A DNA stretch of 64,000 bases from Candidatus Omnitrophota bacterium (GCA_043732705.1 JAYTHE010000029.1:70445-134444), one strand, 5' to 3'; positions 32,899 to 56,800 are shown, counted from the first letter of the stretch. Program-made: numbers and translations. The notes: generated by a model not told the origin, from the sequence alone.

Positions 32899-32940
32899 CC
32901 GCCGGTTGCGCTGGCAACGCAGAGGCGAAATAATTCGTAC
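32899..32940. repeat. PE abutting tRNA-Trp 3' end
   Basis: ccgccggttgcgctggcaacgcagaggcgaaataattcgtac. Confidence 0.75.
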
Positions 32941-33014
32941 AGGCCTGGTAGGATTCGAACCTACAACAAGCGGTTTTGGAGACCGCCGCTCTAGCCAATT
33001 GGAGCTACAGGCCT
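32941..33014 (-). tRNA. trnW: tRNA-Trp (anticodon CCA)
   Basis: Cloverleaf by eye: acceptor AGGCCTG/CAGGCCT, D-loop AGCTCCAATTGGCTAGAGC, anticodon loop CTCCAAA, T-loop GGTTCGAATCC. Confidence 0.85.
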
Positions 33015-34594: not shown

Positions 34595-34667
34595 AGCTGA
34601 AGATGGGAATCGAACCCACGACCTCGTCCTTACCAAGGACGTGCTCTACCAACTGAGCTACTTCAGC
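34595..34667 (-). tRNA. trnT: tRNA-Thr (anticodon GGT)
   Basis: GCTGAAGTAGCTCAGTTGGTAGAGC...CCTTGGTAAGG...GGTTCGATTCC cloverleaf by eye. Confidence 0.85.
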
Positions 34668-36606: not shown

Positions 36607-36636
36607 TTGACAATTTACTTTCTTTCAGCATAATAT
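36607..36636 (+). promoter_or_regulatory. sigma70-like promoter (TTGACA-18-TAATAT) for atp operon
   Basis: hexamers ~60 nt upstream of atpZ-like ORF; -35 sits 8 nt beyond the start of the divergent gene. Confidence 0.45.
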
Positions 36637-36696: not shown

Positions 36697-37002
36697 TTGG
36701 CACACCGTTCGTGTTTGGCCGCCAAGGACCAGCAAATTCTTAATAACTTAAAAATTTTCGGGCTCGCACTCACCATTCCTACGGTTTTGGTTTGCGGACC
36801 TCTGCTGGGATATGGCATTGCTTGTGCTTTAATCAAAAAGGGGATGTCCCCTTCTTTAGCCTTGCCTCTGCTAGTAGGTGCGGGATCTATTTTAGCATTA
36901 GTCCAAACTTTTAGAACGGTTAAATTGATTTCAAAAGCAGAGACGACCAGCGCTAAAGGGACAGAGGCTAAAGAAATTCATGACCGAGAGCATACAAAGT
37001 GA
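36697..37002 (+). CDS. AtpZ/AtpI-like small membrane protein preceding ATP synthase genes
   Basis: 101 aa, two TM helices, position immediately upstream of atpB. Confidence 0.45.
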   Translation: MAHRSCLAAKDQQILNNLKIFGLALTIPTVLVCGPLLGYGIACALIKKGMSPSLALPLLVGAGSILALVQTFRTVKLISKAETTSAKGTEAKEIHDREHTK

Positions 37003-37828
37003 ACATATTGCCGGAGCTGCAGCAAATCATGAAGCAGTTCACGAAGCGCACGAGTTCCCCAACTTCATCCACTTACTTTCCGACCGCTTCCACGATTCCG
37101 CCATTTTGCATTTTATGCATCAGTGGGAAAACCTTTTTTTCTCAGGAACAATTTTAGTTCTCATTTCCTCCATCCTTTTGATTGCTGCTGCGCGTGACAC
37201 ATTGATTCCGGATGTTTTTCGAAATGCGGTCGAAGCGCTTGTCGAAGGCATTGAAAATTTCATTGTCAGCATCTTGGGCGAAGAAGGCCGCAAGCATGTT
37301 CCTTTTTTAGGCACAACTTTTCTTTATATCTTCTTCATGAATTACTGCGGGTTGTTTCCTTTTTTTAAATCTCCGACTTCTTCTTTAAACACTACGATTC
37401 CTTTGGCTTTGATTGCGGTTTGTTATATTCAATATTGGGGGCTTCGCGAACTAGGTTTTAAAAAATATTTACTGCATATCGCCGGCAGCCCGGAAGGCAT
37501 CGCCTCGTGGATCATCGGCGTCATTCTGCTTTTCCCGCTTAATATCATGCTTGAGTTCCTCGCTGTTCCATTAAGTTTATCCGTTCGTCTCTTCGCGAAC
37601 GTCTCGAGTGAAGACTCTTTGCTTTATCAATTTTCGCGCATTGTTTTGCGTTCATATTTATTCGCTTTTCCGCTGCAGCTTTTTGGAAATGCCCTCGCGT
37701 TTCTTTTCAGCGGAATTCAAGCTTTCGTTTTTACTTTGCTGACAACCGTTTATATCAAAGCCATGATGCCCGGTGAACATGGCCCCGAACACTCTGAGTC
37801 TTTGACTCAACCGGTATCGGGACATTAA
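36980..37828 (+). CDS. atpB: F0F1 ATP synthase subunit a
   Basis: conserved LSLSVRLFANV (essential Arg) motif. Confidence 0.85.
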   Translation: MTESIQSEHIAGAAANHEAVHEAHEFPNFIHLLSDRFHDSAILHFMHQWENLFFSGTILVLISSILLIAAARDTLIPDVFRNAVEALVEGIENFIVSILGEEGRKHVPFLGTTFLYIFFMNYCGLFPFFKSPTSSLNTTIPLALIAVCYIQYWGLRELGFKKYLLHIAGSPEGIASWIIGVILLFPLNIMLEFLAVPLSLSVRLFANVSSEDSLLYQFSRIVLRSYLFAFPLQLFGNALAFLFSGIQAFVFTLLTTVYIKAMMPGEHGPEHSESLTQPVSGH

Positions 37829-37879: not shown

Positions 37880-38104
37880 ATGTTAACTAAAGAAATCGTA
37901 CTCGCTTTCGCAATTCCTCTCGGCCTCGGCATCGCTGCTTTGGGCTGCGGTATCGGCATCGGTAACGCCGTGAACGGCGCCATGCAGGCTATCGGCCGTC
38001 AACCTGAAGCTTCCGGAAAAATTATTCCGAATATGCTTATCGGATGCGCTTTGATCGAAGCTCTTACACTTTACGTGTTCGCGCTTGCACTCATGAAAAT
38101 CTGA
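37880..38104 (+). CDS. atpE: F0F1 ATP synthase subunit c
   Basis: 74 aa hairpin, GIGNAV...ALIEALTLYVF. Confidence 0.95.
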   Translation: MLTKEIVLAFAIPLGLGIAALGCGIGIGNAVNGAMQAIGRQPEASGKIIPNMLIGCALIEALTLYVFALALMKI

Positions 38105-38124: not shown

Positions 38125-38610
38125 ATGAATATTGTTCCAGCAGAAATTTTAGTCCAGCTTGTCGCTTTTCTGATTGCGTTTTTCACGCTGAGAAAGTACG
38201 CGTGGATTCCGATGCAAAAATCACTCGCCGCGCGCCGTGACCACATCAAATGCAGTATTGAAGATGTGGAACGCGCTAAAGCCGAGATGGAAAAGCTGAA
38301 AGCGGAATACCAGGAACTTCTCAAGAGAATCGAAGATGAAGGCCGTATTAAAATGGCTGAAGTCGTCGAGGCCGGCCGCCTGATCGCGAAAGAGACCCAG
38401 GATAAAGCCCGTGAAGAAGCTCAGCGCACTTTTGATAAAACAAAAGCTGCGCTTGATTTGGAAGTCGCGAAAGCGCGCATCACCATGCGCCGTGAAATCG
38501 CCGATCTTTCGATTCATGTTGCTGAAAAAATTTTAGGCGATCATTTAAGTGACGGCAAACAGCGCGAAAAAGCTTCGCAGCTCGTAGATCAATTCGAAAA
38601 ATCATTATGA
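38125..38610 (+). CDS. atpF: F0F1 ATP synthase subunit b
   Basis: N-terminal TM + long charged helix. Confidence 0.85.
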   Translation: MNIVPAEILVQLVAFLIAFFTLRKYAWIPMQKSLAARRDHIKCSIEDVERAKAEMEKLKAEYQELLKRIEDEGRIKMAEVVEAGRLIAKETQDKAREEAQRTFDKTKAALDLEVAKARITMRREIADLSIHVAEKILGDHLSDGKQREKASQLVDQFEKSL

Positions 38611-39191
38611 AAGACGCAGGAATTATCGCCAAACGCTACGCGGAAGCCCTTTTCAACCTCTGCCTGAAGGAAAAGAACCTTGGGGTGGTTGAAAAGTCTT
38701 TTGATTCGTTTGTAAATGAAACCACGAAGAACACAACTTTCGTGCACTTCATGGAGAGCCCCGTGATTCCGCATAAAAGCAAAGAAGCTGTGCTTGAAAA
38801 AATTATTCCTCAAGGAATGCCGCCGCTCTTGGTGCTTTTTTTGAAACTGGTCCTGGCTAAAAAAAGGTTTGAAGTTTTGACTTTGATCGAAAAAACTTTT
38901 CAACAGCGCTCGGAACGCTATCGCGGTGTTCATCGGGCGGAATTAACCACGGCGGTTGCCGTGGAGCTCGCGGCAGAAAAAAAACTAACCGCACTGCTTG
39001 AAAAGAAATTTTCTCGAGAGAAAATTTCGGCTTCTGAGCCTTCGGCTCAACCGGAAGTTATTCTTACAAAAAAAGTTGATCCCAAAATATTGGGCGGATT
39101 TATTTTAAAATGGGATGAGCTCGTCGTTGATGCGAGCTATCAAACAAAATTACGCGAAATGAAGCAGCGGCTCTATGCCACCGCGATCTAA
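38607..39191 (+). CDS. atpH: F0F1 ATP synthase subunit delta
   Basis: position between b and alpha; OSCP-like length. Confidence 0.8.
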   Translation: MKDAGIIAKRYAEALFNLCLKEKNLGVVEKSFDSFVNETTKNTTFVHFMESPVIPHKSKEAVLEKIIPQGMPPLLVLFLKLVLAKKRFEVLTLIEKTFQQRSERYRGVHRAELTTAVAVELAAEKKLTALLEKKFSREKISASEPSAQPEVILTKKVDPKILGGFILKWDELVVDASYQTKLREMKQRLYATAI

Positions 39192-39367: not shown

Positions 39368-40873
39368 ATGTTGAAGGCTGATGAAGTAACACAGGCGCTC
39401 GAAAAAGAAATCGCAAAGTATCAATCGAAGCTCGACATTGAATCGGTTGGATATGTGCTTCAAGTCGGCGACGGAATCGCGCGCGTGCACGGACTTGAAA
39501 CCGTCATGGCCGGCGAACTCGTCACATTCGAAGACGGCACCGCCGGGCTCGTTTTGAACCTTGAACCCAGCCAGGTCGGCGTGGTTATTCTCGGTGATGA
39601 CCGCAAGATTAAAGAAGGCGGCATGGTTAAACGTACGGGCAAAATCGCTGAAGTTCCCGTTGGCCCGGCATTAAAAGGCCGCGTAGTGAATCCGCTCGGC
39701 GAACCACTGGACGGCAAAGGCCCAATTGTTTCCAATAAAAAACGTCCGATTGAAACGCTGCCTCCATCAGTGATTCAACGCCAGCCCGTTAAAGAGCCTT
39801 TGCAAACAGGTATCAAAGCCGTCGATGCCATGATTCCAATCGGACGCGGACAACGCGAATTAATTATCGGTGACCGTCAAACCGGGAAAACCGCGATTAT
39901 TGTTGATACCATCATCAATCAGAAAGGCACAGGCATTCACTGTATTTATGTCGCGATCGGACAAAAACTTTCCAGCGTTCTCGCGCTTGCGAAAAAATTC
40001 GAAGAGCATGGCGCAATGGAATTCACGACCATTGTGTGCGCTTCTTCGAATGATCCCGCTCCGCTTCAATACTTAGCGCCTTATGCCGGCTGCGCAATCG
40101 GCGAAGAAGTCATGCATACGGGCGGTCATGCGCTTGTCGCGTTTGACGATCTTTCCAAGCACGCCGTCGCTTACCGTCAGTTGTCATTGCTTTTGCAGCG
40201 CCCGCCCGGACGTGAAGCTTATCCCGGAGACGTTTTCTATATTCACTCGCGACTGCTTGAACGCGCCGCGAAAATGCGTGAAGATTTGGGCGGCGGTTCT
40301 TTAACGGCTTTGCCCGTTATTGAAACTCAGCTCGGCGACGTCTCGGCTTATATTCCAACCAACGTAATTTCGATTACGGACGGACAGATTTATCTCGAAA
40401 CCGATTTGTTTTACGCGGGTGTTCGGCCGGCGATTAACGTCGGTCTTTCCGTTTCACGCGTGGGCGGTAATGCTCAAACCAAAGCGATGAAACAAGTTGC
40501 GGGAACTTTGCGTCTGGCGCTTGCGCAGTACCGCGAACTCGCGGCATTCGCCCAGCTTTCAACCGACCTTGATAAAGCAACGAAAGACCAGTTGACACGC
40601 GGTGAACGCATGGTTGAACTTTTGAAGCAAGACGTTTTTGAACCGCAGCCTTTCGAAAAGCAGGTTGCGATTCTTTTAGCCGGAAACGAAGGTATCTTGG
40701 ATGACATCCCGCTGAAACGTTTGCGTGATTTCGAAACCGGTTATTTCCAATTTTTGGATTCAAATTACGCTGATGCTGTCAAAGACATCCAAAAAAATAA
40801 AAAACTTTCGGATGAAGTCAAAACGAAATTAAAGCAAGCTGCGGTTACATTCAAACAATCATTCAAGCAGTAA
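39368..40873 (+). CDS. atpA: F0F1 ATP synthase subunit alpha
   Basis: GDRQTGKT Walker A. Confidence 0.97.
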
Positions 40874-40925: not shown

Positions 40926-41810
40926 ATGAGCGGTCAACTACGTACATTAAAAAATCGAATCCGCAGTATTTCCAGCACAAAGAAAATCACGCGTGCGATG
41001 GAAATGGTGTCGGCGTCCAAGCTCAAGCGCTATCAAAAAATGGTGCAGGACGGCGCTGCCTATGCGGAAGGCTTACTTAATCTTTTGAAACGTGTTAGCG
41101 CCAGCAGCGCCGAAGCGACTCATCCCCTTTTAGAAAAAAGGCCTGAGAAAAAGAAAGCATTAATCGTTTTTACTTCGGATGCGGGCCTTGCTGGTTCTTA
41201 TAATCAGGACTTAATTGGCGCTGCCGGAAAATTTTTAAAAAATGAAAAAGAAGCTCCGGTTCTGCTGGGTGTGGGAAAAATGGGCGTTCAATTTTTGAAG
41301 AAATCGGGCTCTGATTTCGAAAAAATCTTTATCGAAACCAAGGCCGCGGAAATTGAAAACGTTATTACATCTATTAAAGACACCACCCTGGAACTTTTCA
41401 TGTCAAAACGCGTGGATGCAATCTACGTCACTTACAGCCGCTTTATCAGCGCTTCCCGCTTTCAAGCAGTTACGGAAAAACTATTACCTTTCACGCTCGA
41501 TGCGGTAAAAACAAAATCCCCTGCCGAAGAAACTAAAAAACCTACGGAAGAAAATTACATCATGGAGCCTGACGCGAATGCTTTATTTGAAAAATTAGTG
41601 CCGGCGGTTTTCAGCATGCGTATCCGCAGTATTTTTCTTGAATCTTTTGTGAGCGAACAGATGGCACGCATGAACGCCATGCATCAAGCAACTGAAAACG
41701 CTTCGGAATTGATCGACGAACTTGTGCTTGAACGCAATAAAGCGCGTCAAGCCGCGATTACTAAAGAACTTATTGAAATTATTTCCGGTTCCAAAGCTAT
41801 GAAGGCTTGA
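40926..41810 (+). CDS. atpG: F0F1 ATP synthase subunit gamma
   Basis: 294 aa, KITRAMEMVSASK. Confidence 0.9.
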   Translation: MSGQLRTLKNRIRSISSTKKITRAMEMVSASKLKRYQKMVQDGAAYAEGLLNLLKRVSASSAEATHPLLEKRPEKKKALIVFTSDAGLAGSYNQDLIGAAGKFLKNEKEAPVLLGVGKMGVQFLKKSGSDFEKIFIETKAAEIENVITSIKDTTLELFMSKRVDAIYVTYSRFISASRFQAVTEKLLPFTLDAVKTKSPAEETKKPTEENYIMEPDANALFEKLVPAVFSMRIRSIFLESFVSEQMARMNAMHQATENASELIDELVLERNKARQAAITKELIEIISGSKAMKA

Positions 41811-41849: not shown

Positions 41850-43335
<1,486 letters not shown>

Positions 43336-43337
<2 letters not shown>

Positions 43338-43451
43338 TATTTGCCTCTGCGTTGTTTTTTAGTCTCTGCGTTTCACGCAACCGACAATAAAAATAACGCA
43401 ATTGGCAAAAACAAATTCCGGTTGCGCTTTGGCGCAGAGGAAAAAGAATAC
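43336..43451. repeat. PE x3 (one half, one inverted, one direct) in atpD-atpC spacer
   Basis: atatttgcctctgcg ; gtctctgcgtttcacgcaaccgac ; tccggttgcgctttggcgcagaggaaaaagaatac. Confidence 0.8.
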
Positions 43452-43453
43452 AG

Positions 43454-43714
43454 ATGAGCTACAACCTACAGATCATTACACCGCAGGGAAAAGTTTACGA
43501 TGCTGAGGTCGAGCATGCACAGGTTCCGGGCGATCCCGGCTCCTTCGGCGTGCTTTCCAATCATGCGGCGCTTATCTCCTCTTCAACGGGCGGCAAGCTG
43601 TCAATCCGCGAAAAAGGCGGCAAAAACAGCTCTTTTACCGTAGGCGCAGGATTTTTTGAAACCCGTAAGAATCAGGCCGTATTTTTGGCCGAATCTTTTG
43701 CGGAACGTACCTAA
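43454..43714 (+). CDS. atpC: F0F1 ATP synthase subunit epsilon, short form (N-terminal beta-sandwich only)
   Basis: 86 aa MSYNLQIITPQGKVYDAEVEHAQVPGDPGSFGVLSNHAAL; lacks C-terminal helical hairpin. Confidence 0.8.
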   Translation: MSYNLQIITPQGKVYDAEVEHAQVPGDPGSFGVLSNHAALISSSTGGKLSIREKGGKNSSFTVGAGFFETRKNQAVFLAESFAERT

Positions 43715-43717
43715 TCA

Positions 43718-44218
43718 ATGAAAGCGCTTTTCTTCTGGCTCTTTTCGGTCATTTCTGTCGTCAGTGCGCTGAGTATTTTATTTGTAAGACGGCCCACACG
43801 CGCTTTGCTCGGCCTTCTGGTTTCCATGCTTTGCTTAAGCGTACTTTATACTTTGCTGCATGCCTATTTCGTTGCCATCGTGCATTTGATTGTCTATGCC
43901 GGTGCGGTCATGGTACTTTTTCTTTTTGTGATCATGCTGCAAGGTTTAGGCGCTACAACACTTCCGCTTCTCGAGAGATTCAATAAAGGTCATTTGATTT
44001 TGACCGTTCTTTCTGGTGCGATATTTGTGACACTTTTAACCGTTATTTTTTCAAACGCCAAGCTGCCTGCCTTACAAAATCCGGAAGGCACGGTAGAAAA
44101 CTTAGGGCACATTTTGTTTTCCAATTATATTCTGCCCTTTGAACTTATTTCCGTTTTGGTTCTTCTGGGTATTTTTGCCGCCGTAACCTTAGCAAAAAAT
44201 GAAAGGGCGGCGGCATGA
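43718..44218 (+). CDS. nuoJ: NADH-quinone oxidoreductase subunit J
   Basis: 166 aa, 5 TM, NuoJ-like N-terminus. Confidence 0.85.
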   Translation: MKALFFWLFSVISVVSALSILFVRRPTRALLGLLVSMLCLSVLYTLLHAYFVAIVHLIVYAGAVMVLFLFVIMLQGLGATTLPLLERFNKGHLILTVLSGAIFVTLLTVIFSNAKLPALQNPEGTVENLGHILFSNYILPFELISVLVLLGIFAAVTLAKNERAAA

Positions 44219-44523
44219 CAACTATCCCTTCTGAATATTATTTAGTCTTGGCCGGCATTCTTTTTTCCATCGGTCTTTTCGGGATTTTACTGCGCCGTAA
44301 CATCCTGATTATTCTTTTGTGTCTGGAACTGATGCTGAATGCCGCAAATCTTGTTTTAGTCACCGCCTCTTCGGTTCATGGCCATACTGACGGCCAAATT
44401 ATGGCCTTTTTTGTGATGGTGATTGCCGCGGTGGAAGTCACTATCGGCCTCGCGATTGCTGTTTTACTTTTTAAAGAAAAAAATACCGTCGACACCGGAG
44501 AGATTACATCTCTCAAAGGTTAA
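44215..44523 (+). CDS. nuoK: NADH-quinone oxidoreductase subunit K
   Basis: 102 aa, LCLELMLNAANL motif. Confidence 0.9.
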   Translation: MTTIPSEYYLVLAGILFSIGLFGILLRRNILIILLCLELMLNAANLVLVTASSVHGHTDGQIMAFFVMVIAAVEVTIGLAIAVLLFKEKNTVDTGEITSLKG

Positions 44524-44615
44524 AACTTAAAAGTCAAAACTCAAAACCTAAAACTTGCTCGAACAACTTTGGGTTCCAAGCTATGGTTTTAAGATTTTAG
44601 ATTTAAATTTTGAGC
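44522..44615. repeat. ~90-bp palindromic MITE-like element (nuoK-nuoL spacer)
   Basis: aaaacttaaaagtcaaaactcaaaacc ... gctatggttttaagattttagatttaaatttt; arms mutually reverse-complementary. Confidence 0.6.
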
Positions 44616-44620
44616 TTATT

Positions 44621-46594
44621 ATGCTGAGTTTATGTTGGACAATTTTGGGATTGCCGCTTGCCGCTTCCGCGGTGATTTCGCTTTTATTAATTCCCGCCGA
44701 AAAGGCCGCTAAAGATAAACATTTTTTCCGCACAGCATCTGCCTTTTTGTCCGTTCTTTCGATGGCAGCCGCATTCGGCTTAAGTCTTTTGCTTCTGCAG
44801 AACTTCCGCAGCATTGAAAACCATAGCGAGGTTTTTGAAACTTCCCTGAATTGGATGACTTTACCGCAATTCCGGATTGAAATCGGTTTGCTTCTCAATA
44901 ATCTTACATTGCTGATGCTTTTAATTGTGACCGGCGTATCTTTACTCGTAGCACTATTCTCCTCCCGGTACATGAAAGGCGAAGAGGGCTATTCCCGTTA
45001 TTTTGCCGCGCTTTCTTTTTTTGCTTTTTCAATGCTCGGAATCGTGCTTTCCAATAATTTGATCCAGATTTTTATTTTTTGGGAATTGGTCGGTGTGGCT
45101 TCTTATCTTTTAATCGGTTTCTGGTTTGAAAAGCCTTCGGCCAGCATCGCATCAAAAAAAGCTTTTCTCGTAACGCGTATCGGTGACGTTGGCATGATGC
45201 TTGGCATTCTGCTTTTGCTCGGGCTATTACTCAAATCCGGCACTGGTACATTTAACTTTCTTGAGTTGGAAACAAGACTGCATCAGTCTGCTTTACCGGC
45301 CGGGCTTTTCACCTTGGCCTGCATTGGTATTTTTTTCGGAGCCGTTGGTAAATCGGCGCAGGTGCCTTTGCATGTTTGGCTGCCGGATGCGATGGAAGGT
45401 CCGACACCGGCCAGTGCATTAATCCACGCCGCGACCATGGTTGCTGCGGGCGTGTTCATGCTTGCCCGTCTTTTCTTTTTATTTGAAATGAGTCCAGTAA
45501 CACTGCAAATCATAGCTTGGACCGGTATTATCACCGCTTTTCTCGCGGCATCCATTGCTGTTGTTCAAAATGACATTAAAAAGGTACTCGCCTACTCCAC
45601 GCTTTCGCAGCTGGGATATATGGTCATGGCCGTCGGCCTTAAAAACCCCGAAGCCGGAATGTTTCATTTAACAACCCACGCTTTTTTCAAAGCCTTGCTC
45701 TTTCTTGGCGCCGGCAGTTTGATCCATGCTCTGCACACGCAGGATATATGGGAGATGTCGGCACTGGTCCGTTCCGACCAAAGTCATTCTGCCTCTGCGT
45801 CTTCGACGCAACCGGCACATCGCAGCTGGCTAAAAACTATTCCTATCACAGGTCTTACTTTTCTAATCGGAACTGCCGCGCTTGCAGGGCTTCCTTTTAC
45901 GAGCGGTTTTTTCAGCAAAGAAGAAATTCTCGGTGCGGCTTCGACCGGTCCCCGCATTGTTTTTGGAATGGCACTTGCGGTTGTTTTTCTGACAGCTTTC
46001 TACATGGGCCGCGCTGTTACAATTATCTTCTGGAGCTCCGCTCCAACCAGACACCCTCAAAAACATGTGGAAATACATGAAGATAATTGGATGATTACTG
46101 TTCCGCTGCTTATCCTCGCTGTTTTTTCTTTAATTGCCGGCTATTTACCTTTCAAATCATTTTTAGAGAATCAAACAGCGCATGCTGAAATTCATCCGCA
46201 GTGGCTGGCTGCGGCTTCAGTCACCCTTGCTTGCTGCGGACTTTTACTCAGTTTTGTTCTTTACCGCCGGTCTTCTTCGCCTCTGAGCCAAGGGCTCAAC
46301 CGGAAAAACCTCCTAACTCAACTCGTCACATTTCTTAAAGAAAAATATTATTTCGATAAATTCTATGACTGGTTCATCATTCATGTTCAGGAAAATATCG
46401 CGCGTGCCGCGGACAACTTCGAACGTGTCGTGCTTGAACGCGGCGGCAATCAAGGTTTGGCGGGTTTAACGCAATTTCTGGGAAATACAGCGCGTAAATT
46501 ACAAAACGGCTGGATCCAAAGCTATGCTCTTGTTTTCGCAATCGGCTTTATTGCATTGGTTGCTTATCTTGTATTTTGCGGAGCAAAGTTATGA
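44621..46594 (+). CDS. nuoL: NADH-quinone oxidoreductase subunit L
   Basis: WLPDAMEGPTPASALIHAATMVAAG motif; start moved to ATG 44621 after the MITE-like spacer element. Confidence 0.9.
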   Translation: MLSLCWTILGLPLAASAVISLLLIPAEKAAKDKHFFRTASAFLSVLSMAAAFGLSLLLLQNFRSIENHSEVFETSLNWMTLPQFRIEIGLLLNNLTLLMLLIVTGVSLLVALFSSRYMKGEEGYSRYFAALSFFAFSMLGIVLSNNLIQIFIFWELVGVASYLLIGFWFEKPSASIASKKAFLVTRIGDVGMMLGILLLLGLLLKSGTGTFNFLELETRLHQSALPAGLFTLACIGIFFGAVGKSAQVPLHVWLPDAMEGPTPASALIHAATMVAAGVFMLARLFFLFEMSPVTLQIIAWTGIITAFLAASIAVVQNDIKKVLAYSTLSQLGYMVMAVGLKNPEAGMFHLTTHAFFKALLFLGAGSLIHALHTQDIWEMSALVRSDQSHSASASSTQPAHRSWLKTIPITGLTFLIGTAALAGLPFTSGFFSKEEILGAASTGPRIVFGMALAVVFLTAFYMGRAVTIIFWSSAPTRHPQKHVEIHEDNWMITVPLLILAVFSLIAGYLPFKSFLENQTAHAEIHPQWLAAASVTLACCGLLLSFVLYRRSSSPLSQGLNRKNLLTQLVTFLKEKYYFDKFYDWFIIHVQENIARAADNFERVVLERGGNQGLAGLTQFLGNTARKLQNGWIQSYALVFAIGFIALVAYLVFCGAKL

Positions 46595-46613
46595 CACTGC
46601 ACGGGACACATTT

Positions 46614-48071
46614 ATGATTGCGGCATTACCTTTCATTCCTTATTTAGCAGCATTGGCAATTCTTTGCGTTCCGGCTGCAAAGGAAAAACTTTTACGCTGG
46701 CTTACGATCGGTGCAACCGGTGCTTGTTTGCTGATCACGCTGGTTTTAACGCAGCATTTTGACCGTACACTTCCAGGCTTTCAATTTGTTCATTCCTGGG
46801 ATTGCTTTGCAGAAATGGGCATCCGTTATCAGGTCGGACTTGACGGTATTAATCTTATTTTCTGCCTGTTGCTGGCCATTGTCGCTTTTGCCGGTGCTTT
46901 TATTGCTGTCAAAACAAAAAATCGCCTGAAAGAATATCTTTTTTATTATTTGATCTTAACGGGCAGCATGTTTGCCGTTTTTACAGTATTGAATGTTTTC
47001 TTCTTATATGTCTTTTATGAAATGACTTTGATCCCGGTTTTTGCAATGTTAGGAATCGCAGGTCATCCGGCGCTGAAAGAAAAAGGCGCGATGCATCTTG
47101 CGCTTTATATGATGGCCGGCGCAGTGATCGGCCTTTTCGCAATATTTAACTTATACGATATTCTCGGCCCGGCCTTCATGGACCTAACCCAGGCCAAGGC
47201 AGTTGCACTTTCTAATGCGCCATTATTAACGCCCGATGTTCAGAAGTGGCTCGCCGCGCTTTTGATTGTCGGTTTCGGCATCATGACTTCACTTTGGCCG
47301 CTTCATAACTGGTCGCCTTCCGCTTATGCCGCTGCGCCATCGTCTTTGTCCATGCTGCATGCCGGAGTAAAAATTGGTCCATATTTTCTGCTGCGCATTG
47401 CAATCGCTTATTTGCCGGCCGGCTTTCAGTTTTGGGCGCCTTCTTTAGCCGTTCTCGCGACCATCGGCGTAATCTACGGCGGTTTTGCAGCCATTCGCCA
47501 AAAGAGCTTGAATACGATGGCGGCTTTTTCAAGTGTCAGCCACATAGGCTATGTTTTGCTCGCTTTAGCGGCCCTCAATCTGACTTCATTATCCGCAGGA
47601 ATCCTGCTTATTTTTGGCCACGGGATCATGACCGCTTGTCTGTTCGGTTTGATCGGGCATTTAACCGCACAAGCCCATACGGACGGTATTCACGAATTCG
47701 GCGGACTCGGCAAATCACTCCCTTTCTTTTCTGTCTGTTTTATGCTGACCTCGCTGGCGTCATCGGGAATTCCGGGCTTTGCTAATTTTCCTGCGGAACT
47801 TTTAGTTTTTCTGAGCTCCTGGAAAAATTTTTCGGCCGCGGTTATTTTTGGAGTTTTTGGAGTTTTGATCACAGCGATTTATATGATCCGTGCGGTTCAG
47901 GCGCTTTGCTTCGGTACGGAAAGCAACCGCTCAAAAAACTTAACAGACATGACAACACTCTTTGATAAAACACCTTTTCTGATTTTATTGGCCGTGCTTT
48001 GCTTTTTCGGATTTTTTCCAAGCGCGCTCTTATCGATTATTCAACCGGCAGTCACAAGGCTTTTATCATGA
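46614..48071 (+). CDS. nuoM: NADH-quinone oxidoreductase subunit M
   Basis: antiporter-like; start MIAALPFIPYL. Confidence 0.9.
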   Translation: MIAALPFIPYLAALAILCVPAAKEKLLRWLTIGATGACLLITLVLTQHFDRTLPGFQFVHSWDCFAEMGIRYQVGLDGINLIFCLLLAIVAFAGAFIAVKTKNRLKEYLFYYLILTGSMFAVFTVLNVFFLYVFYEMTLIPVFAMLGIAGHPALKEKGAMHLALYMMAGAVIGLFAIFNLYDILGPAFMDLTQAKAVALSNAPLLTPDVQKWLAALLIVGFGIMTSLWPLHNWSPSAYAAAPSSLSMLHAGVKIGPYFLLRIAIAYLPAGFQFWAPSLAVLATIGVIYGGFAAIRQKSLNTMAAFSSVSHIGYVLLALAALNLTSLSAGILLIFGHGIMTACLFGLIGHLTAQAHTDGIHEFGGLGKSLPFFSVCFMLTSLASSGIPGFANFPAELLVFLSSWKNFSAAVIFGVFGVLITAIYMIRAVQALCFGTESNRSKNLTDMTTLFDKTPFLILLAVLCFFGFFPSALLSIIQPAVTRLLS

Positions 48072-49489
48072 GCAGCTTAGGCCTTTCTCATTTTATTCCG
48101 GATTTAATCAGCGTCGGACTGCTGGCTTATTTCCTGACTGAAGCCATCATCACGGGACAAAAAGACCACCGTTCTATTTTCAATCCTTTGGCCGTAGGAA
48201 CCGTAATTCTCGGCGCCGCGCTTTTCTTTTTCGGACGTAATACCGGCACGGGCTTCGGCGGAATGGTTTCAAACGATCTTTTTGCGCTTTATTTTAAAAC
48301 TTTCTTTACGCTGGTCTTTTTCGTGATTGTTTTCATATGCCGTGATTTCTTCAAGGATTCGGCCGCCAAACAGCAAGAATTCGGATTAATTCTCTGGTGC
48401 CCGTTGATCGGCCTTTATTTTCTCGCTTCCGCTTCCCATTTCTTGATGCTTTTCATAGCGCTTGAAATATTGACCATGGCTATTTACCTGCTTGCCGCTT
48501 ACAGCCGGCGGACGATTTCAGTTGAAGCAGGCCTTAAATATTTAATGATGGGATCAATCGCTTCGGGTTTTACGATTTTCGGAATCGCATTGCTTTATAT
48601 GCAAACCGGCACACTTTCATTCGCGGAAATCGCAGCCGTAAAACAAACTTTATTCGCCAGCCGCCTAGGTTTGCTGGCGCTGCTTTTTATTTTTGCGGGA
48701 TTGGGATTTAAAGCGGCAACCTTTCCTTTTCAGCTTTGGGTTCCGGACGTTTATCAAGGTTCGCCGGCGCCCGTTTCCGCACTCATGTCGGTTGCTTCCA
48801 AAGCCGCGGGATTTTTGCTGATCATTCGTTTTTTTGGCATGACAGTCGGGCCATTGAATGCGCATTGGAAAATGGCTTTGTCCGTGTTGTCTCTTTTTAC
48901 TTTGCTCTACGGTAATTTGGGTGCTTTGGCACAAACGAGCTTTAAGCGCCTCATGGGCTATTCCAGCATCGGCCATGCGGGTTATTTGATGCTTGCCATT
49001 GCCTCAGGCACAGCTTCAAGCACAGCGGCCATCTTGTATTACTTCACGGGTTACGCAGCAAGTACTTTGGCTGTTTTTTATGCCATTACCTTGGTTGAAA
49101 AAGCAATAGGCTCGGATTCAACCGAAAATTTTGAGGGCCTTTCAAAAACATCGCCTTTCCTTTCCGCTGTCCTTTTTATTGCACTTTTATCTTTAGCCGG
49201 TGTTCCACCGCTTGCAGGCTTTATGGGGAAATTCTGGATTCTCTTTTTAGGACTACAGGCAGGTTTAGGATGGCTTGTGTCGGCCGGACTGGTAATGGTT
49301 GTGGTAGGGCTCTATTATTATCTTTCGATCGCAATCAAAATGATTTTTCGCGAACCGAAACTTAAGGCGGAAATTCAAATTTCAATTTCAGCTAAATTAA
49401 TTCTTTGTGTTTTAACCCTTCTCTCGCTCAGCATGGGATTGTTGCAGGCGCCGCTAATTCGAATCGCCGCGGCCGCCATCGGCCGATAA
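48068..49489 (+). CDS. nuoN: NADH-quinone oxidoreductase subunit N
   Basis: antiporter-like; ATGA overlap with nuoM. Confidence 0.85.
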   Translation: MSSLGLSHFIPDLISVGLLAYFLTEAIITGQKDHRSIFNPLAVGTVILGAALFFFGRNTGTGFGGMVSNDLFALYFKTFFTLVFFVIVFICRDFFKDSAAKQQEFGLILWCPLIGLYFLASASHFLMLFIALEILTMAIYLLAAYSRRTISVEAGLKYLMMGSIASGFTIFGIALLYMQTGTLSFAEIAAVKQTLFASRLGLLALLFIFAGLGFKAATFPFQLWVPDVYQGSPAPVSALMSVASKAAGFLLIIRFFGMTVGPLNAHWKMALSVLSLFTLLYGNLGALAQTSFKRLMGYSSIGHAGYLMLAIASGTASSTAAILYYFTGYAASTLAVFYAITLVEKAIGSDSTENFEGLSKTSPFLSAVLFIALLSLAGVPPLAGFMGKFWILFLGLQAGLGWLVSAGLVMVVVGLYYYLSIAIKMIFREPKLKAEIQISISAKLILCVLTLLSLSMGLLQAPLIRIAAAAIGR

Positions 49490-50255: not shown

Positions 50256-50326
50256 GCTATTTTAACTATTTGCTGAAATAAAAAAGGGGGATGGGTTAAA
50301 ACCCATCCCCCATTCTTTCAATTGAG

Positions 50327-53224: not shown

Positions 53225-53824
53225 TTACTGCGAGAGAACTTTTTGGAGATCGCGCTTCGCGACAACTTGCGCATAAAGCGGATTGGGATTAAGCAGCTCA
53301 ACAATATCGAGTTTCATACCTTCGCGCGTATAAGACGCCATATCAAGAATCTGCGTATCCATGCGAATCGCGTCTTCGGGACAAGCCTCAACACAAAATC
53401 CGCAAAAAACACATTTTCCAAGATCAATATCAAAACTCTTGGGACGTTTTTCAATATTTACGTCGGGATGTTCCTCCGCCACAATCGTGATGCACTTTGC
53501 GGGACAAACTGTTTCACACATCATGCACGCCACACAGCGCGGTGAATTATCCACGCGTTTGGTTAAACGATGCCGTGTGCGTAATCGCGAAGGTGGCTTG
53601 CGTCGCTCTTCGGGGTACATGATGGTTACACCCGCGCGAATTAATTTAAAAAGCCCAATCGCATGCATCGTGTGAAAAAAAAGATTTTTCCAGAAATGCC
53701 CGCCGGTAATCCATACGCCGCGGATGATTTCAGGAACATAAATCTGCTGCCAGAAGTTGAGTACAGGCCGGTCAACGACCTTGGTTTTTATCGTCATAGG
53801 GATTGGAATTGTAGCACAACTCAC
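53225..53824 (-). CDS. nuoI: NADH-quinone oxidoreductase subunit I (2x[4Fe-4S] ferredoxin)
   Basis: CVACMMCETVCP and CVFCGFCVEACP motifs; GTG start at 53824 or ATG at 53797. Confidence 0.85.
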   Translation of the reverse strand: MSCATIPIPMTIKTKVVDRPVLNFWQQIYVPEIIRGVWITGGHFWKNLFFHTMHAIGLFKLIRAGVTIMYPEERRKPPSRLRTRHRLTKRVDNSPRCVACMMCETVCPAKCITIVAEEHPDVNIEKRPKSFDIDLGKCVFCGFCVEACPEDAIRMDTQILDMASYTREGMKLDIVELLNPNPLYAQVVAKRDLQKVLSQ

Positions 53825-53832
53825 GCTTGGCG

Positions 53833-56800
53833 TTAAGCAGCAGAAAGCGTTAATTGGACGCCAAAGATTTGGGCTGCCAGGGCATCCAAGCCCACACTGT
53901 GAAACAGTTTGGCAATACCTTGGTCCGTGAGAATTCGATAGTCACCCATTTGCCGTAGTAAAGTAACCGTCTCAGAAGAATCATCCTGGCTCATCAAAGC
54001 TGAACGACGCGCATATTTTCCATGCGTTTGTGCGGCTAAGTCTTGCGGACTGACAAAGACCAGGCCTTGTCCCTTGAACCCTTTCGCCTCGATTAAATTT
54101 TTGAATTCCAGCCGTTGCTGTTCGTTTTCAGCATAAATCGCAAACAGTTTATCGCCCAATACTCGTTTATCTTGTAAGAATCCCTTTTGATGCACAAGTG
54201 CAGGACTTAAAACAACCAAATCCGCCGGTGATTTCATAATTTTATCCATAACAGTCGGCAACACCGGAGCACCAAAATATTGCCCATAAAACCTACTAAA
54301 CTCGGAACGCGTCATAGTATTAACAAATGACACTGAAAAAATATTCCTAGCCATTCTGGTGACTTCAATCTGAGATTGCGGCGAAACTATCAGTTCTTTT
54401 GTCCGCATTTCCGAGCGTAGCACTTTATCGGCAGCAACTGCGTTGTCTGGCAAATTCCACCTATAAATTAGTTCACGAATAAGAATACGATTGACCATTG
54501 ACTGCCTTGAAAATTCACGCTGCTGGCCTGGGTTTTTGACTTGTCTCATCAAAGTGAGCGACAACTCTCTGCTGAATGGATTAACAACGTGGTGCACAAG
54601 ACCCATTGCACCATCTTCACTCATTCTATTAAGAACCTCTTCGAGAGATATTCCTCGAAGATCTTGCATTGTTTTCAGCAAAGTCTGAACCTCTTGATCA
54701 TTCAAAAGCTCCGTATTTTTCATGCCATGAAAACGATCCGCCAATGTTTTTTCATCGTCGGAGCCATAAATCCATTGATCTCGAGCCACCAACGAATCTA
54801 AATATTTAGAAAAATTAAACTCCGTTTTTCTTTTTTCTTTTGCATCCCAAGCAAAAAATGATTTTGTTGTAAATGTTGTGTCTCGAGAAGCCGCTTTTAA
54901 GCGTGCCAAAACTAAAGAGAAACTTTGATCTTCGCTGTTTCTCAAAACCTCTTGCGATTCGGAGCGTGGAACGGTCACAGCTGGCGCAGTTTTTATTTCA
55001 AGTGGTTCAATAAAGCCGGTTTGCAAGCTATCACCACTTGGTATCACATGAACTAAAAATCCTTTGCGGGCTCCATCGCTAGCTAGATTTTCTTTCAACT
55101 GCATTTTTAAATTGCCTTTCACACCACTTTTTAGTTTGATTTCTACTGCCTCCTGGTCAACGCTATTGATTTTGATACGAACCAATTTCAAAATCTTTCC
55201 GGTATGGCTCAAATCTTTCCTTTGATCACGCTCAAGCTCTGCTGTAAAAGAAACTTCGAAGCGCGCAGCTTGGGTCCGCACTCCCGGGATAATTCCAAAT
55301 TGATAAATGCCGCTAACCTTAACACGTTTTCCAGGACGAAATAGTCCGCGGCTCGCTACTTGATTATGTAACTCTTCATCACGCGAATTATCGGGGCGCA
55401 AAGTCATAACAACACCAAATCTGTCCGGCGGTTCGCCTCTCGGTCCTTCTCCGTCCCGCGCTTCTGAACGGACACGCTTTGCAATAGCTCTTTTTATTTT
55501 TCCGAATAAAACTTTCCCATCTGGCGATGCAAGATAATGCAAGGTATGCGAATATTCTCCGGGATGTTTCCAAATATCAGTCTCAAAAAAATTAACGGAC
55601 ACGAGGTGAAACTCTTCGATTTCGTTAAGATTGTAATTTTCTTTTATTTTTTTCAACTCGGCATCAGAAACAAAATATAAATACGCCGTTGTAAACTCGC
55701 GATTGACCCCGTCTTCAAGATCATATTCACGATATATACCATTTTGTTTAGTAAGCGGAATGAACCGGTCTGAGTCAATACGAATACCCACTTCCTCTTC
55801 CGCTTCGCGGCCTGCGGCCGCAATCGGCAATTCGCCGAAATCAACATGGCCGTTCACCGAAACCTGCCATTTCCCCTTGGACGAAGCTTTATTCTGACTG
55901 CGTTTTTGAAACAACAATCTTCCTTTTGAGTCTACAAAATAAATATGTGCCGACATGTGATAAAAACCCTTTTTATGCGCCTCGTCTTTCTTTGCTTTGC
56001 GCCCGGAAAGAATATTGCCATGCTTGTCAGTTAAAGCCACCCCTTCAACGGCTTCGCTTGACTCCACCCCCATTTTTCCGCCCTTTAAAATTAAAACATC
56101 CTGCCGCATTTCGGAGCGCGGTGCTGCAAGCCCTTGGCTCGTGAAACCTTCCTGTCTTACGCTCTTTTCTGGTCTCACCTCAGACGGAGGAAGAATGAGA
56201 TCCGCGGGTTCTGCTTGCCGCAATAAATCAAATTGCTGCAGCGCATCCATCAACCCTTGAAATAAACTTTCTTCCTTTTTTTCTTCGGCGCTTAACGCTT
56301 CCATTTGCTGCCGAAAAGCACGGATTTTTTCTTCGACCTGGCGCTGTGCTTCTAAATCGGCTTTGTAGTCTTCATAATCGGCGCGGCCATGCAGATTTTC
56401 GATCATTCGGTTTTGATAATAATCCCGCTGCCATTGCAACTCAGACAGAGAGCCTTCTTTTGGGGCCGCTTGCCTTGCTTGAGTAGATTTTTCTGATTCA
56501 GTCATGTGTTTACGTACCGCTGCCTTTAATGCTTCTTGCCTTTGGTTTGTGAAATTAATATGAAACGGCCCACGAAGAGCTAGGTGACGGACCAAATCTA
56601 AATATTCAACTGTTTCATCCGACAAAGACCGCAGCCAATCTGCGATTCGTTTAAGTCTGGGCAAAGTGTCTTGCAGGAGAGGTTCAAACGAGTCAACCGG
56701 AAAAAATCCACGATTCATATAAGGTGTGGCAAAAAGCGTTGGCTGTCCGACCTTATTTAAAGCAAAGAATACGCCCCGCCCAAACTCGTCTTCTTTCCAC

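What the first reader, a model, noticed from the sequence alone, without database searches (positions are those of the whole stretch)
43454..49489. ATP synthase operon runs directly into nuoJKLMN; epsilon subunit lacks its C-terminal domain
atpC (86 aa, beta-sandwich only, no inhibitory helical hairpin) is followed 4 bp later by nuoJ and then K, L, M, N, with overlapping stops and starts. No nuoA-H genes are present, and nuoI sits alone 4 kb away on the other strand. Splitting complex I membrane-arm genes from the peripheral-arm genes and fusing them transcriptionally to ATP synthase is unusual. It might reflect a stand-alone antiporter-like module or co-regulation of the two respiratory complexes.
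Basis: partly seen in the sequence, partly recalled or inferred. Interest (0 to 1): 0.55.

Follow-up and report, generated by a model that had tools for sequence, protein, structure and literature searches.

The report
ATP synthase operon fused to nuoJKLMN
In one group of Omnitrophota bacteria, the five genes for the proton-pumping end of respiratory complex I sit at the tail of the ATP synthase operon; the rest of complex I is encoded elsewhere, so this is a conserved but mechanistically ordinary gene rearrangement, not a new machine.

Summary
The window carries atpB-E-F-H-A-G-D-C, with an 86-aa epsilon that has only the beta-sandwich domain. nuoJ starts 3 nt after the atpC stop and is followed by nuoK, L, M and N. 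The only other nuo gene in the window is a lone nuoI, 3.7 kb further on the opposite strand.

The arrangement is neither chance nor an assembly error. The same atpC-nuoJKLMN junction occurs in 6 other assemblies and 16 metagenome contigs, mostly labelled Omnitrophota, down to about 50% NuoJ identity.

The "stand-alone antiporter" idea is not supported. Related genomes hold a separate nuoABCDEFGH cluster plus a detached nuoI, once on the same contig as atp-nuoJKLMN and once in the same MAG. The J-N genes therefore look like the only membrane-arm set of a complete 14-subunit complex I. Co-transcription with atp is likely from spacing and conservation, but it is untested. I could not reach the window's own nuoA-H.

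The short epsilon is a widespread natural variant and also occurs in lineages without the fusion.

One extra finding: NuoM in all Omnitrophota examined lacks the conserved TM7 lysine (E. coli K234).

I found no published description. Verdict: new variant of known systems, modest interest.

The parts
36607..36634 (+). Best sigma-70-like promoter match (TTGACA-16-CATAAT, 11 of 12), upstream of the atp genes; candidate operon promoter
   Evidence: This is a consensus match only; the region as a whole has 28 matches against 22.8 +/- 4.5 expected.
36697..37002 (+). Small hydrophobic ORF (101 aa, TTG start) in the position of atpI; no family hit
   Evidence: Relatives have an unannotated 64-103 aa ORF in the same place.
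36980..37828 (+). atpB (Fo subunit a)
   Evidence: PF00119, 145.6 bits; NF004481 and TIGR01131.
37880..38104 (+). atpE (Fo subunit c). The ion-site motif LIEALTLY lacks the Ser/Thr after Glu that Na+ types have
   Evidence: PF00137; sequence. The H+ assignment comes from my own knowledge of Na+-binding motifs.
38125..38610 (+). atpF (Fo subunit b)
   Evidence: PF00430.
38607..39191 (+). atpH (F1 delta / OSCP)
   Evidence: PF00213.
39368..40873 (+). atpA (F1 alpha)
   Evidence: PF00006, PF00306 and PF02874; 79-86% identical in relatives.
40926..41810 (+). atpG (F1 gamma)
   Evidence: PF00231, 276.8 bits.
41898..43337 (+). atpD (F1 beta)
   Evidence: PF00006, PF02874 and PF22919.
43454..43714 (+). 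atpC, a naturally short epsilon (86 aa) with the beta-sandwich only and no C-terminal helical hairpin
   Evidence: PF02823 covers residues 4-81 of 86. It matches only positions about 2-85 of the 130-137-residue NCBIfam epsilon profiles. Relatives are 86-94 aa.
43715..43717 (+). 3-nt atpC-nuoJ spacer (TCA); no room for a terminator or promoter
   Evidence: Spacers are 4-41 nt in five relatives and 0-53 nt in 16 metagenome loci.
43718..44218 (+). nuoJ
   Evidence: PF00499, 111.1 bits. Residues Y59 and V65 (E. coli numbering) are conserved.
44215..44523 (+). nuoK; 4-nt ATGA overlap with nuoJ
   Evidence: NF004320, 116.3 bits against a cutoff of 57. E36 and E72 are conserved. Overlap shown.
44555..46594 (+). 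nuoL. The ORF runs from TTG 44555; the probable start is ATG 44621. It includes the C-terminal lateral-helix region and a Ser/Ala-rich insert of about 30 aa starting near 45758
   Evidence: NF005141, 610 bits against 556; PF00662, PF00361 and PF06455. E144, K229, H254, K342 and K399 are conserved. Insert located.
46614..48071 (+). nuoM. The probable start is ATG 46614; the longest ORF starts at 46524. The TM7 lysine is replaced by Met (codon 47283-47285)
   Evidence: TIGR01972, 338.9 bits against 263.8. Residue checks.
48068..49489 (+). nuoN. The probable start is ATG 48068, overlapping the nuoM stop (ATGA); the longest ORF starts at 47999
   Evidence: TIGR01770, 351.4 bits against 332.6. E133, K217, K247 and K395 are conserved. 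Overlap shown.
49470..49485 (+). Weak terminator-like hairpin at the very end of nuoN (CGGCCGCCATCGGCCG, then ATAATTTTCT)
   Evidence: consensus scan only.
53225..53797 (-). nuoI (2 x [4Fe-4S]), detached from both nuo clusters and 35 nt downstream of the giant ORF
   Evidence: TIGR01971, 112.7 bits against 113.05; Fer4 families. It is 70-96% identical across the clade. Start inferred from the alignment.
53833..63969 (-). Giant ORF (3378 aa; GT4 glycosyltransferase and NUDIX domains) directly upstream of nuoI. This is context, not part of the respiratory genes
   Evidence: The same giant-gene-then-nuoI order occurs in L094 (9185 aa) and L095.

Best explanation
The window comes from an Omnitrophota bacterium. 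In its clade the complex I genes are split into three places:
- nuoABCDEFGH, which carries NADH oxidation, quinone reduction and the proximal membrane subunits A and H.
- A detached nuoI.
- nuoJKLMN, which has been moved to the 3' end of the F1Fo ATP synthase operon.

The most likely working is as follows. A promoter upstream of atpB drives one transcript of about 12.9 kb, (atpI-like)-atpBEFHAGDC-nuoJKLMN. Translation is coupled across the 3-nt atpC/nuoJ spacer and the ATGA overlaps at J/K and M/N. The J-N products then assemble with A-I made elsewhere into an ordinary 14-subunit proton-pumping complex I. This ties synthesis of the pump's membrane arm to synthesis of the enzyme that consumes the proton gradient.

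The epsilon subunit is a natural short form. It keeps the beta-sandwich, which couples F1 to the c-ring. It lacks the helical hairpin that inhibits ATP hydrolysis in other bacteria, so the enzyme is probably not braked by epsilon.

Shown: gene identities, the conserved junction, and the presence of nuoA-I in relatives. Inferred: co-transcription, assembly into one complex, and the functional consequence of the short epsilon.
For: Gene identities:
- All five nuo genes are best matched by Nuo models. NuoK, L, M and N score above NCBIfam cutoffs.
- All eight atp genes hit their Pfam families.

Conservation of the junction:
- atpC-nuoJKLMN is found in L002 (GCA_043718225.1), L004/5/6, L007 (GCA_016196545.1), L008 (GCA_035495615.1), L092 (GCA_964385615.1) and L095 (GCA_964562525.1), with NuoJ 51-84% identical.
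- It is also found in 16 metagenome loci. These include 13 of the 14 loci whose epsilon is most similar to the window's.

Same-genome partners:
- Contig CAYLPP010000005.1 holds nuoA-H plus nuoI (L014). About 8 kb away and convergent, it holds atp-nuoJKLMN (L092).
- MAG GCA_035495615.1 has atp-nuoJ-N plus nuoI on one contig (L008) and nuoG-nuoH on another (L099).
- L100 shows a full nuoABCDEFGH cluster and then a detached nuoI.
- Five contig lengths are shared between the NuoJ and NuoH hit lists.
- In Omnitrophota loci L013-L019, L021, L049, L053 and L080, no J-N genes follow nuoH or nuoI.

Functional integrity:
- The key charged residues of NuoJ, K, L and N are conserved.
- NuoI is 70-96% identical across the clade.

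Operon signals:
- The spacer is 3 nt and no terminator-like hairpin sits at the junction.
- The best promoter-like match lies upstream of the atp genes.

Epsilon:
- It is 86-94 aa in all fused loci.
- 77 of 79 related metagenome epsilon ORFs are 81-98 aa.
- 77 of the 150 nearest cluster representatives are 105 aa or shorter.
Against: - The window's own nuoA-H genes could not be located. Completeness of complex I in this particular genome is therefore inferred from relatives.
- There is no transcript evidence. A weak promoter-like match (9 of 12) lies inside atpC at 43656-43685, so an internal promoter is not excluded.
- In the closest accessible relative (L002) a 272-bp element with terminal inverted repeats sits between atpC and nuoJ. 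Tight coupling is therefore not obligatory.
- One close relative (L106) has a toxin-antitoxin-like insert after atpC and no nuoJ within 1.4 kb.
- NuoM lacks the TM7 lysine of the Glu/Lys ion pair. The pump may not be fully canonical.
Confidence: 0.75

Rival explanations
1. Adjacent but separately expressed. nuoJKLMN came to lie behind atpC through rearrangement. It is transcribed mainly from its own promoter inside atpC or atpD, so the conserved adjacency has no regulatory meaning.
For: - A 9-of-12 promoter-like match at 43656-43685 lies 33 nt upstream of the nuoJ start.
- L002 tolerates a 272-bp insert at the junction.
- Unfused Omnitrophota (L024, L041) run nuoJKLMN as its own unit.
Against: - Promoter-like matches occur at chance frequency in this region: 28 found against 22.8 +/- 4.5 expected.
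- The junction is kept at 0-53 nt in more than 20 loci whose proteins have diverged to about 50% identity. This is hard to explain without selection on the linkage.
Confidence: 0.15
2. Stand-alone antiporter-like module. NuoJKLMN works without the redox arm, as an Mrp-like cation/proton antiporter or as an accessory to the ATP synthase.
For: - The five genes are physically separated from all redox subunits.
- NuoL, M and N are homologous to Mrp antiporter subunits.
- NuoM has an altered TM7.
Against: - Relatives with the fusion encode nuoA-I but no other J-N set near it. A complex I without these genes would have no membrane arm.
- Scores are far below the Mrp equivalog cutoffs, for example 295.6 against 1104.
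- No MrpB, E, F or G-like genes are present.
- NuoL keeps the complex I lateral-helix region (PF06455).
- NuoJ and NuoK keep the E-channel residues that link to NuoH and NuoA.
Confidence: 0.06
3. Decaying remnant. A host-dependent nanobacterium is losing complex I, and the J-N genes and nuoI are leftovers drifting towards pseudogenes.
For: - Omnitrophota genome surveys report fragmentary complex I in most genomes (bioRxiv 10.64898/2026.06.07.730766).
- NuoM has lost a conserved lysine.
Against: - All five ORFs are intact and of normal length.
- Catalytic residues are kept in NuoJ, K, L and N.
- NuoI is 94-96% identical to close relatives.
- The arrangement persists across deep divergence together with intact nuoA-H in the same genomes.
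Confidence: 0.03
4. Assembly chimera joining an atp contig to a nuo contig.
For: None found. The window comes from a metagenome-type assembly.
Against: The identical junction is present in an independent Logan assembly of the same sequence (L001) and in more than 20 other independent assemblies.
Confidence: 0.01

Closest known systems
Canonical nuoA-N operon of respiratory complex I (e.g. E. coli K-12, locus L097)
   Same: The same 14 subunit families are present. NuoJ-N are 25-40% identical to the E. coli proteins, and the E-channel and antiporter residues are conserved. J-K-L-M-N are in the same internal order with the same translational overlaps.
   Different: In E. coli all genes form one operon. 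Here the cluster is broken after nuoH and after nuoI, and J-N are appended to atpC. NuoM lacks the residue equivalent to K234.
Other Omnitrophota with unfused nuoJKLMN (L024, L041; also L032, L035, L038)
   Same: Same phylum labels. nuoA-I forms one unit and nuoJKLMN a separate unit. NuoM also lacks the TM7 lysine.
   Different: There nuoJKLMN stands alone, convergent with nuoA-I, and only a small unrelated ORF lies upstream of nuoJ. There is no atp operon in front.
Scattered ndh genes of cyanobacterial and plastid NDH-1 (ndhCKJ, ndhAIGE, ndhB, ndhD, ndhF, ndhH); from my own knowledge
   Same: It is a precedent for one complex I-type enzyme encoded by several transcription units.
   Different: The breakpoints differ: ndhA-I-G-E keeps H, I, J and K together. 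There is no linkage to atp genes. The cyanobacterial enzyme lacks NuoE, F and G, whereas Omnitrophota relatives have them.
Naturally short epsilon subunits of F-type ATP synthases (short NCBIfam epsilon profiles of 88, 101 and 102 positions such as NF009983; truncated C-termini in alpha-proteobacteria, PMC9317440)
   Same: The beta-sandwich is retained and the C-terminal helices are reduced or absent. About half of the nearest sequence clusters are 105 aa or shorter.
   Different: The window's epsilon scores below the cutoffs of those specific short-epsilon equivalogs (48.4 against 106 for NF009983). It belongs to a different, uncurated short-epsilon lineage.
Mrp-type multisubunit cation/proton antiporters
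   Same: NuoL, M and N share the Proton_antipo_M fold family (PF00361) with MrpA and MrpD. NuoK resembles MrpC.
   Different: Scores are far below the Mrp cutoffs. There are no MrpB, E, F or G genes. Partner redox subunits are present in related genomes.

Membership tests
F1Fo ATP synthase epsilon subunit (AtpC) | N-terminal beta-sandwich domain (PF02823) | tested here: met
   67.3 bits against a cutoff of 27; residues 4-81 match profile positions 2-79 of 80.
F1Fo ATP synthase epsilon subunit (AtpC) | C-terminal two-helix hairpin (regulatory domain) | tested here: not met
   No Pfam hit beyond residue 81, and the ORF ends at residue 86. nuoJ starts 3 nt later. NCBIfam full-length profiles are matched only over their first ~85 positions.
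F1Fo ATP synthase epsilon subunit (AtpC) | Last gene of an atpBEFHAGDC cluster | tested here: met
Respiratory complex I (Nuo / NDH-1) membrane-arm subunits J, K, L, M, N | Match to subunit-specific curated models | tested here: met
   NuoK NF004320 116.3 against 57; NuoL NF005141 610 against 556; NuoM TIGR01972 338.9 against 263.8; NuoN TIGR01770 351.4 against 332.6. NuoJ PF00499 111.1 against 33.2, but below the NCBIfam equivalog cutoffs.
Respiratory complex I (Nuo / NDH-1) membrane-arm subunits J, K, L, M, N | Conserved charged and polar residues of the E-channel and of NuoL and NuoN (NuoK E36, E72; NuoL E144, K229, K399; NuoN E133, K217, K395; NuoJ Y59) | tested here: met
   Alignment with the E. 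coli proteins and four relatives. NuoL D400 is Glu.
Respiratory complex I (Nuo / NDH-1) membrane-arm subunits J, K, L, M, N | NuoM Glu(TM5)/Lys(TM7) ion pair (E. coli E144/K234; described as conserved in PMC9271201) | tested here: not met
   The Glu is kept. The Lys is replaced by Met in the window and by M, L, I or T in all Omnitrophota NuoM examined. Alignments to E. coli, Paracoccus 8qby_M and cyanobacterial 6tjv_D agree. K265, H322, H348 and E407 are kept.
Respiratory complex I (Nuo / NDH-1) membrane-arm subunits J, K, L, M, N | NuoL C-terminal lateral helix and anchor | tested here: met
   PF06455 NADH5_C at residues 502-669, 29.4 bits against 28.2.
Respiratory complex I (Nuo / NDH-1) membrane-arm subunits J, K, L, M, N | Partner subunits NuoA-I encoded in the same genome (relatives) | tested here: met
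   L014 and L092 lie on one contig. L008 and L099 are in one MAG. L100 shows nuoABCDEFGH plus nuoI.
Respiratory complex I (Nuo / NDH-1) membrane-arm subunits J, K, L, M, N | Partner subunits NuoA-H encoded in the window's own genome | not testable with these tools
   Only nuoI is in the window. The scan found nothing.
Mrp-type stand-alone cation/proton antiporter | MrpA/MrpD equivalog-level similarity | tested here: not met
   Best Mrp models score 295.6 against 1104 (NuoL) and 159.1 against 542 (NuoN), always below the Nuo models.
Mrp-type stand-alone cation/proton antiporter | Adjacent mrpB, E, F, G genes | tested here: not met
   The cluster holds only five genes. They are flanked by atpC and by unrelated small ORFs on the other strand.
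Single transcription unit (atp-nuoJKLMN operon) | Same strand, short or overlapping spacers, no terminator at the junction | tested here: met
   The junction is conserved at 0-53 nt in relatives.
Single transcription unit (atp-nuoJKLMN operon) | A transcript spanning atpC-nuoJ | not testable with these tools
   No transcriptome data are available here.

The most novel reading that the evidence does not exclude
The Omnitrophota respiratory chain may have been re-tuned as a unit. Three features would then belong together: a distal pump module whose NuoM has lost the TM7 lysine (possibly one pumping site silenced or altered), stoichiometric co-expression of that module with the ATP synthase from one mRNA, and an ATP synthase without the epsilon brake. 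Together they would be an adaptation of the H+/e- and H+/ATP balance, or of co-assembly of the two complexes, to very small, energy-limited cells, and not a neutral rearrangement.
Probability: 0.1. Interest if true: 0.6.

Novelty: new variant of a known kind. Interest (0 to 1): 0.35.

Why it matters
If the fusion is a real operon, it is a natural case in which the membrane arm of the main proton pump is expressed in fixed proportion with the enzyme that uses the gradient. The break points (A-H, I, J-N) roughly follow the modules in which complex I assembles. This makes the clade a useful comparative case for modular assembly and for how respiratory genes are regulated in ultra-small, uncultured bacteria.

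It also matters for genome surveys. Pipelines that look for a contiguous nuo operon will score these genomes as having "fragmentary" complex I when the full subunit set is present.

The missing TM7 lysine in NuoM gives complex I specialists a natural variant at a position treated as invariant in pumping models.

Tried and rejected
- **Source contig.** Exact look-up of the window's NuoJ returned only a 2.5-kb Logan contig, not the 156,692-bp NCBI contig. I could not read beyond the window.
- **Giant-protein scan.** I scanned metagenome contigs with the first 500 aa of the giant protein, to see what lies upstream of it in relatives. There were no confirmed hits.
- **NuoH search.** I searched with an Omnitrophota NuoH hoping for a hit on the window's contig or on the 52,071-bp contig of its closest relative. 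None appeared among the 120 listed. The search did give five contig-length matches to the NuoJ list.
- **Supplementary tables.** I searched the supplements of the Omnitrophota paper for the relevant assemblies. They are not listed.
- **Rfam scan.** The window gave only two tRNAs and nothing at the operon.
- **Rejected: assembly chimera.** Independent assemblies share the junction.
- **Rejected: the rearrangement clipped the epsilon C-terminus.** This cannot be shown. Equally short epsilons occur in about 50 unfused loci, including a high-GC lineage (L118), so the truncation is wider than the fusion.
- **Rejected: Na+-coupled ATP synthase.** The c-subunit motif argues against it (motif from my own knowledge).
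- **Not pursued.** Rokubacteria-type loci show nuoA-K but no tblastn hit to L, M or N in the following 8.5 kb.

Full report
**1. What is in the window**

ORF listing and family scans show a complete F-type ATP synthase gene set on the + strand:
- atpB 36980-37828
- atpE 37880-38104
- atpF 38125-38610
- atpH 38607-39191
- atpA 39368-40873
- atpG 40926-41810
- atpD 41898-43337
- atpC 43454-43714

AtpC is 86 aa. The beta-sandwich model PF02823 covers residues 4-81 and nothing matches a C-terminal domain. Full-length NCBIfam epsilon profiles of 130-137 positions are matched only over about their first 85 positions.

The atpC stop (TAA, 43712-43714) is followed by TCA and then the nuoJ start at 43718. 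Next come nuoK (44215-44523, ATGA overlap with nuoJ), nuoL (ORF from 44555, probable start 44621, to 46594), nuoM (probable start 46614, to 48071) and nuoN (probable start 48068, ATGA overlap with nuoM, to 49489). NuoK, L, M and N score above curated NCBIfam cutoffs for those subunits, and NuoJ passes Pfam.

A 2x[4Fe-4S] NuoI-type gene lies on the minus strand at 53225-53797. It sits 35 nt behind a 3378-aa ORF (53833-63969). tblastn with Omnitrophota NuoA, B, C, D, F, G and H finds nothing else in the 64 kb.

**2. Whose genome, and is the arrangement real?**

Homologues of NuoJ, NuoI and NuoH carry source names such as "Candidatus Omnitrophica/Omnitrophota bacterium". Some MAGs are labelled Verrucomicrobiae or Planctomycetia. 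A giant gene next to nuoI fits what is reported for this phylum (PMC10066038; bioRxiv 10.64898/2026.06.07.730766).

The gene order atpBEFHAGDC-nuoJKLMN, always with an 86-94-aa epsilon, recurs in six other assemblies:
- L002 (GCA_043718225.1, NuoJ 84% identical)
- L095 (GCA_964562525.1)
- L004/L005/L006 (57%)
- L007 (GCA_016196545.1)
- L008 (GCA_035495615.1)
- L092 (GCA_964385615.1)

An independent Logan assembly reproduces the window's own junction (L001).

A survey of metagenome contigs with an alignment of short epsilons returned 80 loci. In 16 of them nuoJ begins 0-53 nt after the atpC stop, followed by K, L, M and N wherever the contig is long enough. That includes 13 of the 14 loci whose epsilon is most similar to the window's. 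The junction is therefore a conserved trait of a clade whose proteins have diverged to about 50% identity. It is not chance and not a chimera.

**3. Where the other complex I genes are**

Following NuoI homologues led to L011/L012 (GCA_016179745.1), which has nuoA-B-C-D, nuoF-G-H, one inserted gene and then nuoI. It also led to L010 (GCA_049324575.1), which has nuoG-nuoH, five inserted genes and then nuoI.

A genome-collection scan with Omnitrophota NuoH, followed by a tblastn map, gave many Omnitrophota loci with nuoA-H(-I) and no J-N behind them (L013-L019, L021, L049, L053, L080). L100 shows the full nuoABCDEFGH set, including NuoE, and then a detached nuoI.

Two cases link both halves to one organism:
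- Contig CAYLPP010000005.1 carries nuoA-H and nuoI (L014). About 8 kb away and convergent, it carries atp-nuoJKLMN (L092).
- MAG GCA_035495615.1 has atp-nuoJKLMN plus nuoI on contig 28 (L008) and nuoG-nuoH on contig 72 (L099).

Five further contig lengths are shared between the NuoJ and NuoH hit lists.

The J-N genes behind atpC are thus the membrane arm of an otherwise complete 14-subunit complex I. For the window's own genome this remains an inference, because I could not read past the window. In the window and its two closest relatives a giant gene sits directly upstream of nuoI. In L098/L099 a giant gene follows nuoH after three small genes. nuoA-H may therefore lie just beyond the window's 3' end.

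**4. How the split compares with other lineages**

- Other Omnitrophota (L024, L032, L035, L038, L041) have nuoA-I followed by a convergent, free-standing nuoJKLMN with no atp genes in front.
- Acidobacteriota, Elusimicrobia and other loci retrieved by the same NuoH query have nuoL-M-N directly upstream of nuoA and nothing after nuoI (for example L020, L075, L081, L084).
- Rokubacteria/Methylomirabilota loci have the usual H-I-J-K order.

The I|J boundary is therefore a recurrent breakpoint in this branch of complex I. The step specific to the window's clade is the docking of J-N behind atpC.

Identities hint that the two modules have different histories. NuoH of the fused clade is about as close to Acidobacteriota (61-62%) as to unfused Omnitrophota (58-59%). 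NuoL, M and N are clearly closer to unfused Omnitrophota (42-49%) than to Acidobacteriota (28-37%). I did not build trees, so this stays a lead.

**5. Likely mechanism**

The best promoter-like match in 18 kb (TTGACA-16-CATAAT) lies at 36607-36634, upstream of the atp genes. No terminator-like hairpin sits at the atpC/nuoJ junction, and only a weak one lies at the end of nuoN. Add the 3-nt spacer and the ATGA overlaps at J/K and M/N. The simplest reading is then one transcript of about 12.9 kb with translational coupling into nuoJ.

The products look functional:
- NuoK E36 and E72, NuoJ Y59, NuoL E144, K229 and K399, and NuoN E133, K217 and K395 are all conserved.
- NuoL has its lateral-helix region.
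- NuoI is 70-96% identical across the clade.

Co-transcription itself is inferred. A 9-of-12 promoter-like match inside atpC and the 272-bp insert with inverted-repeat ends at the junction in L002 mean that separate expression cannot be excluded.

**6. The short epsilon**

All fused loci have an epsilon of 86-94 aa with variable short tails after the sandwich. Short epsilons are not peculiar to the fusion:
- 77 of the 150 nearest 50%-identity cluster representatives are 105 aa or shorter.
- 77 of 79 epsilon ORFs in the metagenome survey are 81-98 aa.
- About 50 of those have no nuoJ downstream, including a high-GC soil lineage (L118).
- Curated short-epsilon profiles exist, and C-terminal truncation is described for alpha-proteobacteria (PMC9317440).

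The expected consequence is no epsilon-mediated inhibition of ATP hydrolysis. This follows from what is established about the C-terminal domain (PMC5990651) and was not tested here. The c subunit has an H+-type site by motif (my own knowledge).

**7. An extra finding**

NuoM in the window has Met where E. coli has K234, the lysine of the TM5/TM7 Glu-Lys ion pair. The neighbouring WLPDAH motif reads WSPSAY. Alignments to E. coli NuoM, Paracoccus 8qby_M and cyanobacterial 6tjv_D agree.

Every Omnitrophota NuoM examined, fused or not, has M, L, I or T at this position. Acidobacteriota and Elusimicrobia sequences from the same scan keep the lysine. E144, K265, H322, H348 and E407 are retained. This ion pair is described as conserved in each antiporter-like subunit and as part of current pumping models (PMC9271201). 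I did not establish how common the substitution is outside this phylum.

**8. Comparison with what is known, and novelty**

All parts belong to well-known families. What differs is the gene order: a three-way split of the nuo genes, with J-N fused to the atp operon. Searches of the paper library found no description of it:
- Omnitrophota + complex I + ATP synthase
- nuoJKLMN
- atpC + nuoJ
- nuoJ-N / nuoA-H

I class the finding as a new variant of known systems. It is a solid comparative-genomics observation with a plausible regulatory meaning, but no new mechanism has been shown.

**9. Verdict**

| Item | Assessment |
|---|---|
| Observation | Confirmed |
| Confidence in the best explanation | 0.75 |
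| Interest | 0.35 |
| Most novel reading not excluded | Coordinated re-tuning of pump and synthase, including the NuoM change; probability about 0.1 |

Noticed in passing
window 47283-47285 (NuoM residue 224, counting from the start at 46614): The TM7 lysine of the NuoM Glu/Lys ion pair (E. coli K234) is Met, and the WLPDAH motif reads WSPSAY. The same loss (M, L, I or T) is seen in all Omnitrophota NuoM examined, fused or not. Acidobacteriota and Elusimicrobia sequences keep the Lys.
   Followed up: partly
window 53833-63969 (-): Giant 3378-aa ORF with GT4 glycosyltransferase and NUDIX domains and eight RSE[MA]R motifs, ending 35 nt before nuoI. Close relatives have a 9185-aa (L094) or at least 1361-aa (L095) gene in the same place.
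   Followed up: partly
L002 9292-9563: In the closest accessible relative, the atpC-nuoJ spacer holds a 272-bp insert with 28-29-nt terminal inverted repeats, like a miniature transposable element. Other atp and nuo spacers in L002 are also enlarged to 107-160 bp.
   Followed up: partly
L020, L022, L023, L026, L029, L033, L034, L065, L074-L076, L081, L084: In Acidobacteriota, Elusimicrobia and related loci, nuoL-M-N lie directly upstream of nuoA and nothing nuo-like follows nuoI. This is a permuted order, (J-K-)L-M-N-A...I.
   Followed up: no
L039, L042, L045, L046 and similar Rokubacteria/Methylomirabilota loci: nuoA-K are in canonical order, but tblastn finds no NuoL, M or N in the 8.5 kb after nuoK.
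   Followed up: no
L106 306-1728: A close relative (epsilon 52% identical, 89 aa) has, after atpC, a toxin-antitoxin-like pair (HTH protein plus RelE-like protein) between two copies of a short ORF ending ...PEEIEFLKQPGSSF. There is no nuoJ within 1.4 kb.
   Followed up: no
window 45758-45850 (NuoL): A Ser/Ala-rich insert of about 30 residues (SALVRSDQSHSASASSTQPAHRSWLK) splits the profile alignments of NuoL into two stretches.
   Followed up: no
window 43338-43453: The 116-nt atpD-atpC spacer has a long-range inverted repeat (CCTCTGCG ... CGCAGAGG) ending just before the atpC ribosome-binding region. L002 has a hairpin at the equivalent spot.
   Followed up: no
window 50286-50311: Strongest hairpin in the region (11 bp, 8 GC), readable on both strands, with a T-run on the minus strand after the Thr/Ala-rich ORF 50327-50797. 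It is a likely terminator between the convergent gene blocks.
   Followed up: no
window 1-35000: Upstream lies a conserved core-gene block whose ORFs have the sizes of rpoB and rpoC (1265 and 1348 aa), EF-G (693 aa) and EF-Tu (399 aa), plus two tRNAs at 32940-33014 and 34595-34667. I did not run family scans on these ORFs.
   Followed up: no
L100, L011 versus L092, L041: NuoA-I of the fused clade are about as similar to Acidobacteriota and Rokubacteria as to unfused Omnitrophota. NuoL, M and N are distinctly closer to unfused Omnitrophota. The two modules may have separate evolutionary histories.
   Followed up: partly
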